Positions 3,156 to 4,713 are shown, numbered from the stretch's first letter. The stretch: 20,196 bases of DNA from a virus (IMGVR_UViG_2563366948_000002:1-20196), one strand, 5' to 3'. Numbers and translations are program-made. Notes: generated by a model not told the origin, from the sequence alone.

Positions 3156-3737
3156 ATGAGCGAAAGGAAAAGAATTGAAGATCAGTATCTTCTCTATCAT
3201 TTAACATGTATGGATAATCTACCTAGTATTTTAGATACAGGATTAAGATCTCGTGCATCAGTAAAAGGTGAGTTTGTTGATGTGGCCGACGGTGAAATAA
3301 TAACAGGTCGCGAAGCATTAAATTTGCAAACAATGGTTCCTTTTCATTTCTTTACTAAGAATCCATTTGATGGAAGAGTCCTGAAAGATCATAAGGAAAA
3401 ATCATTTTGTATTATTTCGGTTTGTCGGGCATTTGCCAAAGAAAATGGTTGGAAAGTTATCCCTAAACATCCATTATCCACCAGTTCTGTTATAGACCTC
3501 TTAGATTATGAACAAGGAATGGCCCAAATTGACTGGGAGCTAATGAATATAAGGGATTATAAAAATGCAGAATGCAAATCTGTATGTATGGCTGAGTGTT
3601 TATCAAGTGTAACGGTCGAGCCGAAAAATTTCCATTGCATCTTTGTCAAAAATGATAACGAAAAAAAATATGTTGAAGGGTTGATAAAACAACAAGGATT
3701 AAGTATATTGATAACGATCAACACTTATATGTTCTAA
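3156..3737 (+). CDS. darT: DarT-like DNA ADP-ribosyltransferase toxin (DUF4433 family)
   Basis: Translation carries DarT hallmarks: LLYHLTCMDNLPSILDTGL (YHxTxxxNLPxIL), VPFHFFTKNPF (VPFYFxPxSP-like), QIDWELMN, and CMAECLSS (AE-x-L, position of the catalytic Glu). 193 aa; AT-rich. Confidence 0.75.
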   Translation: MSERKRIEDQYLLYHLTCMDNLPSILDTGLRSRASVKGEFVDVADGEIITGREALNLQTMVPFHFFTKNPFDGRVLKDHKEKSFCIISVCRAFAKENGWKVIPKHPLSTSSVIDLLDYEQGMAQIDWELMNIRDYKNAECKSVCMAECLSSVTVEPKNFHCIFVKNDNEKKYVEGLIKQQGLSILITINTYMF

Positions 3738-3741
3738 TTCT

Positions 3742-4713
3742 ATGATTAAGTATGCAAGCGGAAATCTTCTAAACTCTACATCGCAAGCTCTTGTGAATGC
3801 TGTAAACTGCCAAGGAGTCATGGGAAAGGGTATTGCTTTGGCTTTTAAAGAAACTTTTCCCTATAATTTCGAAGTTTATAAGAGAGCATGCGCCACTGGT
3901 ACAATGAAAATTGGACAGGTTTTAATTGTAGAGGAAAAGGGAAAAATAATTGTCAACTTTCCCACTAAAGATAGTTGGAGAAAAAAATCAACATATGATT
4001 TTATCTCGCAAGGCCTTGAATCTTTAGCAAAAATTATAGATGAAAAAAAAATTACATCAATATCAATACCACCTTTAGGCTGTGGTAATGGGGGCCTCGA
4101 TTGGAATAAGGTTGAGGCTCTTATTTTAAAAACTTTTCAAAATTTAGATAATGTTGATGTGGTAATTTATCCGCCTGCAACTAACAATCAACTTTCAAAA
4201 AATAAAAATGTTATTAATGCTAAGCATCTTTTGGTTCACTACGCCTATGGAAAATTAAAAGTTAAGCAAAAATATTCCCTTTATACAGTTTTTTATATTT
4301 GCGAATGTATTGAGAAAGCAAATCTTTTTTTATTCGATTTTAAACATGGTCGGCCATACTCTTCTGAGTTAGAAAATATTATGAAGGATATAGCAAACCT
4401 TAAAGTTGAGTTGCAAGGAGATTTTGATGCTTTTATTGAAGATTATATTAATACTCATCAATCCAAAGAGTTACAAACCGAGTTTGGTAAACTAATCTCA
4501 ACTTTAAATCCAAGTATAAGTTTGCTCAATGCTCTTAAAAATAAGATTGATTATACAGATAGCGTACATGTGATCACGAGAATTGCTAAAGAAAAAGATC
4601 ATGGCTTGCATATTGACAATTTCAAAGAATATGAAAATATTGTGCAGCATTTAATTAAAAATGGATTGGTAATCGAAGATATTTTTAACGAACTAAAAAT
4701 AAAGGGAAGTTAG
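3742..4713 (+). CDS. darG: DarG-like antitoxin with N-terminal TARG1-type macrodomain
   Basis: N-terminus GNLLNSTSQALVNAVNCQGVMGKGIALAFKETFP matches the macrodomain pattern of DarG/TARG1 (xVNxVNxxGVMGKGIAxxFK). Starts 4 nt after the darT stop; 323 aa. Confidence 0.75.
   Translation: MIKYASGNLLNSTSQALVNAVNCQGVMGKGIALAFKETFPYNFEVYKRACATGTMKIGQVLIVEEKGKIIVNFPTKDSWRKKSTYDFISQGLESLAKIIDEKKITSISIPPLGCGNGGLDWNKVEALILKTFQNLDNVDVVIYPPATNNQLSKNKNVINAKHLLVHYAYGKLKVKQKYSLYTVFYICECIEKANLFLFDFKHGRPYSSELENIMKDIANLKVELQGDFDAFIEDYINTHQSKELQTEFGKLISTLNPSISLLNALKNKIDYTDSVHVITRIAKEKDHGLHIDNFKEYENIVQHLIKNGLVIEDIFNELKIKGS

What the first reader, a model, noticed from the sequence alone, without database searches (positions are those of the whole stretch)
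3156..4713. DarT/DarG toxin-antitoxin module as prophage cargo at the old/tin position
Gene 1 carries the DarT signature segments and gene 2 starts 4 nt later with a TARG1/DarG-type macrodomain. DarTG is an established abortive-infection defence that ADP-ribosylates thymidines in single-stranded phage DNA. Here it lies just left of the cos-like site, where P2 carries old and tin, on a prophage that has lost its replication genes. It is AT-rich and has its own candidate promoter.
Basis: partly seen in the sequence, partly recalled or inferred. Interest (0 to 1): 0.6.

Follow-up and report, generated by a model that had tools for sequence, protein, structure and literature searches.

The report
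DarTG2 defence cassette in P2-like prophage
Two adjacent genes in a decayed P2/186-like E. coli prophage encode an intact DarT DNA ADP-ribosyltransferase toxin and its DarG macrodomain antitoxin, a known anti-phage system sitting in a known prophage defence hotspot, so the call is correct but ordinary.

Summary
Two ORFs, 3156-3737 (193 aa) and 3742-4713 (323 aa), are separated by 4 nt and lie in an AT-rich island (30-36% GC, against 52-60% in the phage structural genes). Gene 1 is a DarT: it passes the Pfam and PADLOC profiles, and a confident model matches DarT2 crystal structures at TM about 0.8. The catalytic Glu E147 and Arg R52 are present. Gene 2 is a DarG with a TARG1-type macrodomain, catalytic Lys K76 and a C-terminal domain.

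The pair sits between the tum (DinI-like) gene and the cos site of a 186/P2-like prophage. This is the gpA-to-gpQ hotspot where P2 carries old and tin. The prophage has lost its replication genes and most head and tail genes through two deletions.

None of this is new. The proteins are identical to RefSeq WP_016239482.1 and WP_016239483.1. That DarT accession already appears in the P2-hotspot tables of Rousset et al. 2022. It also heads a published DarT sequence list in a position that suggests it is the E. coli DarT2 tested by LeRoux et al. 2022.

The only mildly interesting points are that the DarT belongs to a short, divergent clade, and that an uncharacterised three-gene module lies next door, between cos and the portal gene.

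The parts
3095..3124 (+). Candidate sigma-70 promoter TTGACT-18-TATAAA upstream of darT. A second candidate, TCGACA-16-AATAAT, lies at 3057-3084.
   Evidence: Read from the sequence. The scan lists 3057-3084, but the number of sites equals the chance expectation. Weak evidence.
3156..3737 (+). darT: a 193-aa DNA ADP-ribosyltransferase toxin of the short DarT clade. Invariant residues include Y14, H15, R33, R52, H64, H105 and E147.
   Evidence: Pfam PF14487 78 bits. PADLOC DarT 124 bits. AF2 model pLDDT 92. Foldseek top hits are Thermus, M. tuberculosis and T. africanus DarT2, TM 0.72-0.83. Invariant residues. Identical to WP_016239482.1.
3742..4713 (+). darG: a 323-aa antitoxin. Residues 1-148 form the macrodomain, with GVMGKG, FPTK (K76) and PPLGCGNGG; the rest is the C-terminal domain.
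   Evidence: Macro PF01661. PADLOC DarG 268 bits, covering 1-305. NCBIfam antitoxin_DarG 230 bits, cutoff 250. PDB M. tuberculosis DarG 5m3i E=3e-43 and T. aquaticus DarG 5m31 E=3e-37, with FPTK aligned. Identical to WP_016239483.1.
2392..2688 (+). cII'-'tum fusion ORF made by the 5.1-kb deletion (junction 2603/2604) that removed fil through the replication gene A. It marks the left, conserved edge of the hotspot.
   Evidence: Pfam CP76 N-terminal part plus DinI C-terminal part in one 98-aa ORF. Alignment to the intact prophage L001.
2776..2852 (.). Short IS/transposase-like remnant on the left side of the DarTG cassette.
   Evidence: 86% match to annotated transposase genes in other E. coli genomes.
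4870..4977 (+). IS5/IS1182 transposase pseudogene fragment on the right side of the DarTG cassette.
   Evidence: RefSeq annotation of the identical stretch in L001, L002 and L003.
5266..5284 (+). cos-like site (GGCGTGGCGGGGATACGAG) within the conserved cos region of about 5142-5307. It separates the DarTG slot from the second cargo slot.
   Evidence: Pattern match with 3 mismatches to the P2/186 cos core. 87% identity to the cos region of the Rousset pFR109 clone. The region is shared by 1,270 E. coli genomes.
5444..7662 (+). Neighbouring three-gene module of unknown function (368, about 148 and 221 aa) between cos and portal gene Q. It is a separate cargo slot and not part of DarTG.

Best explanation
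This is an intact DarTG2-type toxin-antitoxin anti-phage module carried as accessory cargo in the cos-proximal hotspot of a P2/186-like prophage (tum to cos, the old/tin position).

Inferred mechanism, from the characterised family: DarT uses NAD+ to ADP-ribosylate thymidine bases in single-stranded DNA, which blocks replication. In uninfected cells DarG neutralises it in two ways. Its macrodomain (catalytic K76) removes the ADP-ribose, and its C-terminal domain binds DarT. Phage infection upsets this balance by an unknown trigger, so DarT modifies the DNA of the infecting phage (and of the host) and aborts the infection.

The host prophage has since decayed through two deletions, but the cassette is unchanged, so it now acts as a chromosomal defence gene pair.

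Shown here: family membership, catalytic residues, gene order, genomic position and sequence integrity. Inferred: substrate base, toxicity, defence phenotype and trigger.
For: - DarT and DarG profile hits.
- DarT model with pLDDT 92 whose eight best PDB matches are all DarT structures. DarT2 entries score TM 0.72-0.83, above DarT1 at 0.69.
- E147 aligns with the MAACL segment of 7omu. I take that Ala to be the engineered catalytic Glu-to-Ala substitution; this rests on my recollection and was not checked.
- R52 aligns within one position of Thermus DarT R51. R52, H105 and E147 are invariant across 30 homologues.
- The DarG macrodomain matches M. tuberculosis and T. aquaticus DarG at E=3e-43 and 3e-37 with FPTK conserved. 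K80 is the catalytic Lys of DarG according to PMC11543638.
- The same darT-darG pair recurs elsewhere: with the same 4-nt spacing in a non-prophage island beside an Mrr-type restriction-domain gene in Ewingella, and with a DarG partner in Brevibacillus and Marinobacter.
- The position equals the gpA-gpQ hotspot that holds old and tin in P2. The same DarT accession is listed in P2-hotspot arrangements.
- The proteins are identical to those in intact prophages of other strains.
- WP_016239482.1 heads the DarT list of PMC11481870, next to E. coli C7 DarT1. This is consistent with it being the LeRoux 2022 DarT2, which defends against T5 and SECphi18.
Against: - No experiment was done here.
- The DarT scores far below NCBI's DarT equivalog cutoff (53 against 150) and DarG slightly below its cutoff (230 against 250).
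- Identity to structurally characterised DarTs is only 16-21%.
- The thymine-contacting His (H119 in Thermus) could not be mapped unambiguously. Sequence alignment to T. africanus puts an Asn opposite H105.
- The identification with the LeRoux DarT2 is circumstantial, because that paper is not held.
- The promoter is not supported statistically.
Confidence: 0.9

Rival explanations
1. The pair works mainly as an addiction or stabilisation module. It persists because loss of the locus frees the stable toxin, and this is why it survived while the surrounding prophage was deleted. Phage defence would be secondary or absent.
For: The cassette is intact and identical in protein while 5.1 kb on its left and a block of head and tail genes on its right have been deleted. 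DarTG is a bona fide toxin-antitoxin system.
Against: Both deletions end hundreds to thousands of bases away from the cassette, so they say little. The neighbouring non-TA three-gene module survived as well. [quoted passage not shown] Family members have been shown to defend against phages. The two roles are not mutually exclusive.
Confidence: 0.2
2. The short DarT clade has a different target from canonical DarT2. This could be another base, or a different sequence motif from TNTC/TYTN.
For: The clade is well separated from canonical DarT: 53 bits against 251 bits on the equivalog model, and essentially no BLASTP similarity. In Marinobacter a short DarT and a canonical DarT sit side by side ahead of a single DarG, which suggests non-redundant activities. 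The family is known to have diversified to guanine and, judging from a 2026 paper's title and abstract in the search listing, to cytidine.
Against: The partner is a DarG/TARG1-type macrodomain. Published work shows this type to be specific for thymine-linked ADP-ribose and inactive on guanine-linked ADP-ribose. The fold is closer to DarT2 than to DarT1. A different motif within thymidine targeting remains quite possible; a different base is unlikely.
Confidence: 0.15
3. The genes are an inactive relic. The prophage is decaying and the module no longer functions.
For: The prophage has lost replication and morphogenesis genes. IS remnants flank the cassette.
Against: Both ORFs are full length and identical to the copies in intact prophages. 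All family-invariant residues are retained. An active toxin gene cannot easily persist without a working antitoxin.
Confidence: 0.03

Closest known systems
E. coli DarTG2 anti-phage system (LeRoux et al. 2022, Nat Microbiol 7:1028)
   Same: A DarT toxin with a macrodomain DarG antitoxin in E. coli. The window DarT is identical to WP_016239482.1, which is listed first, directly before E. coli C7 DarT1, in the DarT sequence sheet of PMC11481870. That paper's methods say the LeRoux DarTs were added by hand. If it is the same protein, defence against T5 and SECphi18 and enhanced activity at slow growth are already shown.
   Different: Identity with the tested construct could not be verified, because the paper is not held. 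Here the module is seen in its native context, which is a decayed prophage.
Canonical DarT2/DarG of Thermus, M. tuberculosis and EPEC E2348/69
   Same: The same ART fold (TM about 0.8). The catalytic Glu and Arg are present. The DarG macrodomain has the catalytic Lys in FPTK. The gene order is darT then darG.
   Different: Only 16-21% identity. The protein is about 15-25 residues shorter. It lies below NCBIfam's DarT equivalog cutoff (53 against 150). EPEC DarTG2 is embedded in a type I restriction-modification operon, not in a prophage. The DNA motif is unknown for this clade.
DarTG1 (E. coli C7 DarT1 with a NADAR antitoxin)
   Same: The same DarT superfamily fold and the N-terminal (L/I)(Y/F)H(L/F)T...NL.SIL motif.
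   Different: The DarTG1 antitoxin is a NADAR domain and the target is guanine. Here the antitoxin is a macrodomain, and the structural match to DarT1 is weaker (TM 0.69).
P2 old/tin locus: P2-like prophage defence hotspot (Rousset et al. 2022; Vassallo et al. 2022)
   Same: The same position, between the replication/tum genes and cos/portal Q. The cargo is AT-rich and variable. Arrangements 'DarT + ... + Macro + DinI' carrying this very DarT accession are in Rousset's Table S5.
   Different: old and tin are unrelated proteins. DarTG was catalogued but not discussed or tested in that study.

Membership tests
DarTG2 (DarT2 + macrodomain DarG) | The toxin has the DarT-type ADP-ribosyltransferase fold or profile. 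| tested here: met
   Pfam PF14487 at 78 bits, above the 22.5 cutoff. PADLOC DarT at 124 bits. The AF2 model (pLDDT 92) matches Thermus, M. tuberculosis and T. africanus DarT at TM 0.72-0.83 with probability 1.0.
DarTG2 (DarT2 + macrodomain DarG) | Catalytic Glu (E160 in Thermus DarT2). | tested here: met
   E147 in CMAECL is invariant in 30 homologues. It aligns with MAACL of 7omu. I take that Ala to be the engineered Glu-to-Ala substitution, from recollection, not checked.
DarTG2 (DarT2 + macrodomain DarG) | Proton-abstracting Arg (R51 in Thermus DarT2). | tested here: met
   R52 is invariant. It aligns to the ERR segment of Thermus DarT 7omv, within one position of R51. The role of this residue is taken from PMC11543638.
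DarTG2 (DarT2 + macrodomain DarG) | Thymine-coordinating His in the ARTT loop (H119 in Thermus; Asn in the guanine-specific DarT1). | tested here: inconclusive
   An invariant H105-P106 lies 42 residues before the catalytic Glu; the spacing in Thermus is 41. However, HMMER alignments to T. africanus place an Asn opposite it, and the Thermus alignment does not reach this region. No residue-level structural superposition was available.
DarTG2 (DarT2 + macrodomain DarG) | The antitoxin has a TARG1/DarG-type macrodomain with the catalytic Lys (K80 in T. aquaticus DarG). | tested here: met
   Residues 1-148 align to M. tuberculosis DarG 5m3i (E=3e-43) and T. aquaticus DarG 5m31 (E=3e-37). FPTK is conserved, and K76 corresponds to K80 after the tag and indel offset. 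Human TARG1 is also matched, at E=5e-11.
DarTG2 (DarT2 + macrodomain DarG) | The antitoxin has a C-terminal DarT-binding domain. | tested here: inconclusive
   The PADLOC DarG profile covers residues 1-305 of 323. The NCBIfam DarG model aligns only to residue 243. No structure or interaction test was done.
DarTG2 (DarT2 + macrodomain DarG) | Two-gene operon, toxin first, tightly coupled. | tested here: met
   darT stops at 3737 and darG starts at 3742 on the same strand. The Ewingella homologue has the same 4-nt spacing.
DarTG2 (DarT2 + macrodomain DarG) | Meets NCBIfam's equivalog thresholds for DarT (NF048013) and DarG (NF048014). | tested here: not met
   DarT scores 53 bits against a 150 cutoff, and DarG scores 230 against 250. 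A canonical Marinobacter DarT scores 251 and its DarG 452. The window pair is therefore a divergent clade and not an equivalog of the canonical proteins.
DarTG2 (DarT2 + macrodomain DarG) | DarT is toxic and rescued by DarG, thymidine in ssDNA is ADP-ribosylated, and phages are restricted. | not testable with these tools
   These need wet-lab assays. They have probably been done already for the identical protein by LeRoux et al. 2022, but that link is circumstantial.
DarTG1 (DarT1 + NADAR) | NADAR-domain antitoxin. | tested here: not met
   Gene 2 is a macrodomain protein with no NADAR hit.
P2-like prophage cos-proximal defence hotspot | Variable cargo between the replication/tum genes and portal gene Q, next to cos. 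| tested here: met
   The gene order is cI, cII'-'tum, DarTG, cos, three-gene module, Q, P. The flanks are shared by 1,270-1,790 E. coli genomes, while the cassette is in only 10 of 5,426. The hotspot definition comes from PMC9122126.

The most novel reading that the evidence does not exclude
The roughly 190-aa DarT here represents a distinct 'short DarT' paralogue. It would be neutralised by DarG-type macrodomains but recognise a different ssDNA motif from canonical DarT2. That would explain why Marinobacter carries a short and a canonical DarT in tandem ahead of a single DarG. In addition, the hotspot would hold a second, so far undescribed defence module between cos and the portal gene, made of an RdgC-like DNA-binding protein, a small acidic protein and a PD-(D/E)xK-like nuclease.
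Probability: 0.3. Interest if true: 0.5.

Novelty: already known. Interest (0 to 1): 0.15.

Why it matters
It matters little beyond correct annotation. It documents a known anti-phage toxin-antitoxin system in its native setting, the P2-like prophage hotspot, and shows that the cassette outlives the prophage that delivered it.

Two side points could be worth a small follow-up. The first is the target motif of the short DarT clade, which may be relevant to DarT-based 'append' genome editors that depend on motif specificity. The second is the uncharacterised three-gene module in the adjacent slot.

Tried and rejected
- I tested whether the neighbouring three genes are the Rst_3HP system that Rousset et al. 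validated from the same hotspot. BLASTP found no similarity.
- I looked for this DarT in sequenced phage genomes. There was one distant hit (38% identity) in 50,697 records, so it is known only from prophages and chromosomal islands.
- I looked for more distant DNA relatives in E. coli. The same 10 genomes came back.
- I tried to confirm the identity with the LeRoux DarT2 directly. The paper is not held under its PMC id or DOI, and later papers that use the plasmid give no accession.
- I used the lengths of the PADLOC models to guess their seed clade. This was rejected, because the canonical DarT scores higher than the short clade.
- I tried to map the thymine-contacting His from sequence alignments. 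The result was ambiguous.
- The promoter and terminator scans gave no signal above chance.
- A Pfam scan of all 27 members of the g221 family for a nuclease domain found nothing; the PD-(D/E)xK reading rests on the motif only.
- I considered a mutation in darG of strain 2022CK-00450 because RefSeq annotates a shorter protein there. This was rejected, because the sequence is identical and only the annotated start differs.

Full report
**Observation.** The two ORFs exist exactly as described: 3156-3737 (+, 193 aa, ATG start) and 3742-4713 (+, 323 aa, ATG start), four bases apart. They lie in an AT-rich island. GC is 0.30-0.36 for 3001-5000 and stays at 0.32-0.35 through most of 5501-7500, with only the cos region (5001-5500) higher at 0.44. 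The phage structural genes at 8000-16500 are 0.52-0.60.

**What gene 1 is.**
- Pfam assigns it to DarT (PF14487, 78 bits, cutoff 22.5, profile positions 1-199 of 201). PADLOC assigns it to DarT at 124 bits.
- NCBI's stricter equivalog model for canonical DarT gives only 53 bits against a cutoff of 150.
- About 450 homologues of roughly 190 aa were found across Gammaproteobacteria and some Firmicutes, and all 120 listed carry PF14487.
- In an alignment of 30 of them, Y14, H15, R33, R52, H64, H105, E147 and others are invariant.
- An AlphaFold2 model built from that alignment is confident (pLDDT 92, pTM 0.88).
- Its eight significant PDB matches are all DarT structures. Thermus sp. 2.9 DarT, M. 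tuberculosis DarT and the T. africanus DarT-DarG fusion score TM 0.72-0.83. E. coli C7 DarT1 is lower at 0.69. Sequence identity is only 16-21%.
- E147 (CMAECL) aligns with MAACL in 7omu. I take that Ala to be the engineered catalytic Glu-to-Ala substitution; this is my recollection and was not checked.
- R52 aligns within one residue of R51 of Thermus DarT. The roles of R51, H119 and E160 in DarT2 are described in PMC11543638.
- The counterpart of the thymine-contacting H119 could not be fixed. The invariant H105 has the right spacing to the Glu, but sequence alignments are ambiguous there.

**What gene 2 is.**
- Residues 1-148 are a DarG/TARG1-type macrodomain. They match M. tuberculosis DarG (5m3i, E=3e-43), T. 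aquaticus DarG (5m31, E=3e-37) and human TARG1 (E=5e-11).
- The GVMGKG and PPLGCGNGG loops and the FPTK motif are conserved. The Lys of FPTK (K76) corresponds to the catalytic K80.
- The PADLOC DarG profile covers residues 1-305 (268 bits), so a DarG-type C-terminal domain is present.
- NCBIfam's DarG model aligns only to residue 243 and scores 230, just under its cutoff of 250. A divergent DarT-binding domain would fit a divergent DarT partner.

**Context.** The window is a 186/P2-like prophage inserted between rcdA and ybjL.
- The gene order is integrase (1-1209, -), CI repressor (1449-2024, -), a cII'-'DinI fusion ORF (2392-2688), DarTG, cos, three unknown genes, portal Q (7732-8769, -), terminase P (8766-10532, -), then a gpO-sheath fusion ORF, tail tube, tail assembly chaperone (gpE-type), a long ORF (12376-15453) that I take to be the tape measure from its size and position, and gpD.
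- The window is 97.6-99.8% identical to an intact prophage at the same chromosomal site in E. coli O22:H8 RM10809-3 (L001), apart from two deletions.
- The first deletion, of 5.1 kb, removes fil through the replication endonuclease gene and joins cII to the DinI-like tum gene at 2603/2604.
- The second starts near 11117 and joins gpO to the tail sheath gene.

**The hotspot.**
- A cos-like core, GGCGTGGCGGGGATACGA, lies at 5266-5283.
- The region 5142-5290 is 87% identical to the cos region in a clone from another P2-like prophage (Rousset's pFR109).
- The flanks are common in E. coli: the DinI-like gene region occurs in 1,790 genomes and the cos region in 1,270. The DarTG cassette occurs in only 10 of 5,426 complete genomes, always on the chromosome and at 99% identity or more.
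- The cassette occupies roughly 2700/2800 to 5040/5140. It is bracketed by IS remnants: a transposase-like stretch at 2776-2852 and an IS5/IS1182 pseudogene at 4870-4977.
- Cargo to the right of cos varies independently. Strain 2018-11-3CC has the same DarTG cassette, but a single AAA ATPase gene replaces the three-gene module.
- Rousset et al. 2022 define the gpA-gpQ interval next to cos as a defence hotspot that holds old and tin in P2. Vassallo et al. 2022 agree.

**Is it already known?** Yes.
- The window proteins are identical to RefSeq WP_016239482.1, annotated 'DarT ssDNA thymidine ADP-ribosyltransferase family protein', and WP_016239483.1, annotated 'macro domain-containing protein'.
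- Rousset's Table S5 lists P2-hotspot arrangements of the form 'hypothetical + DarT + ... + Macro + DinI' that contain WP_016239482.
- WP_016239482.1 is the first entry in the DarT sequence sheet of the V. cholerae DarTG paper (PMC11481870). It is immediately followed by WP_032219799.1, whose sequence matches the part of the E. coli C7 DarT1 chain 8baq shown in the PDB alignment.
- That paper states that the DarTs of LeRoux et al. 2022 were added to its PSI-BLAST set, and it models 'DarT1 and DarT2 from E. coli'.
- This makes it very probable that the window encodes the DarT2 whose anti-phage activity was shown experimentally. That system is active against T5 and SECphi18, works better at slow growth, and is countered by phage macrodomain proteins.
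- I could not confirm the link, because the LeRoux paper is not held.

**Mechanism.** From the family literature, the steps are as follows.
1. DarT2 transfers ADP-ribose from NAD+ to N3 of thymidine in ssDNA motifs, which blocks replication.
2. DarG removes the modification through its macrodomain and also sequesters DarT through its C-terminal domain.
3. Infection releases DarT by an unknown trigger, so phage DNA is modified and replication fails.

For this locus, family membership, catalytic residues, operon structure and integrity are shown. Substrate, toxicity and defence are inferred.

**What is slightly unusual.**
- The DarT belongs to a short clade that is clearly separate from canonical DarT2.
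- In Marinobacter, a 51%-identical short DarT (42 bits on the equivalog model) sits immediately upstream of a canonical DarT (251 bits) and a single canonical DarG (452 bits). All three lie inside a type I restriction-modification operon.
- In Brevibacillus, a short DarT pairs with a canonical DarG. In Ewingella, an 86%-identical pair with the same 4-nt spacer lies in a chromosomal island beside an Mrr-type restriction-domain gene and a DUF2971 gene.
- This suggests that the short DarT is DarG-compatible but not redundant with canonical DarT2, perhaps through a different DNA motif.
- Functional DarTG2 systems are known to be very divergent from each other, at 20-26% identity, so the divergence alone is not remarkable.

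**Promoter.** Consensus-like hexamers lie upstream of darT, at 3057-3084 and at 3095-3124, and a GGA-containing Shine-Dalgarno sequence lies 9 nt before the ATG. Promoter-like sites are no more frequent than in shuffled sequence. An IS1 inserted near window position 3015 in strain 2022CK-00450 leaves these elements next to darT.

**Neighbouring module (not part of the finding).**
- Three tightly packed genes lie between cos and Q at 5444-7662. They have no Pfam, PADLOC or NCBIfam match and belong to PHROGs of unknown function.
- They are not the Rst_3HP system.
- The 221-aa protein has invariant E90, D98 and E111-A-K113, which is a PD-(D/E)xK-like motif, but no profile support.
- The 368-aa and 221-aa families each comprise about 40 clusters, almost all in Enterobacterales, and many hits appear to lie on the same contigs, judged by matching contig lengths and organisms.
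- This is a plausible candidate defence module, but it is untested.

**Verdict.** The system is a known kind, in a known place, with identical sequences already in public annotation and in published data sets. Interest is low.

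Noticed in passing
[not shown]
   Followed up: partly
L006-L008 (Marinobacter), 4694-11602: The order is hsdM, hsdS, short DarT (189 aa, 51% identical to the window DarT), canonical DarT (214 aa), a single DarG (359 aa), then hsdR, with BrxR upstream. Two DarT paralogues share one antitoxin inside a type I restriction-modification operon.
   Followed up: partly
window 2392-2688, junction 2603/2604: A 5.1-kb deletion fuses the N-terminal part of cII (CP76) in frame to the C-terminal part of the DinI-like tum gene. It removes fil, the dam-like methylase gene, the replication endonuclease gene and others.
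   Followed up: yes
window 10675-11367, junction near 11117: A second deletion fuses the capsid scaffold gene gpO to the C-terminal part of the tail sheath gene. It removes the capsid, small terminase, lysis, baseplate and fibre genes, so the prophage cannot form particles.
   Followed up: partly
window 2776-2852 and 4870-4977; L004 8289-8986: IS remnants bracket the DarTG cassette: a transposase-like fragment on the left and an IS5/IS1182 pseudogene on the right. In strain 2022CK-00450 a complete IS1A has inserted just upstream of darT. This hints that IS activity moved or remodelled the cargo.
   Followed up: no
L003 (E. coli 2018-11-3CC) 11419-13755: The same DarTG cassette and cos are present, but the slot between cos and Q holds a single 778-aa AAA-family ATPase instead of the three-gene module. 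The two sides of cos are therefore independently exchangeable cargo slots.
   Followed up: no
window 5266-5297: The cos core variant GGCGTGGCGGGGATACGAG differs from the P2/186 core (…GGGGAAAGCA…). It overlaps a GC-rich palindrome, CGAGCGCGCGCTCG, which the terminator scan picked up. The same variant occurs in the pFR109 clone from E. coli E1114.
   Followed up: partly
L004 9728-10699: RefSeq annotates darG in strain 2022CK-00450 with a later start (297 aa, WP_050491752.1), although the DNA encodes the identical full 323-aa protein. This is an annotation inconsistency, not a mutation.
   Followed up: yes
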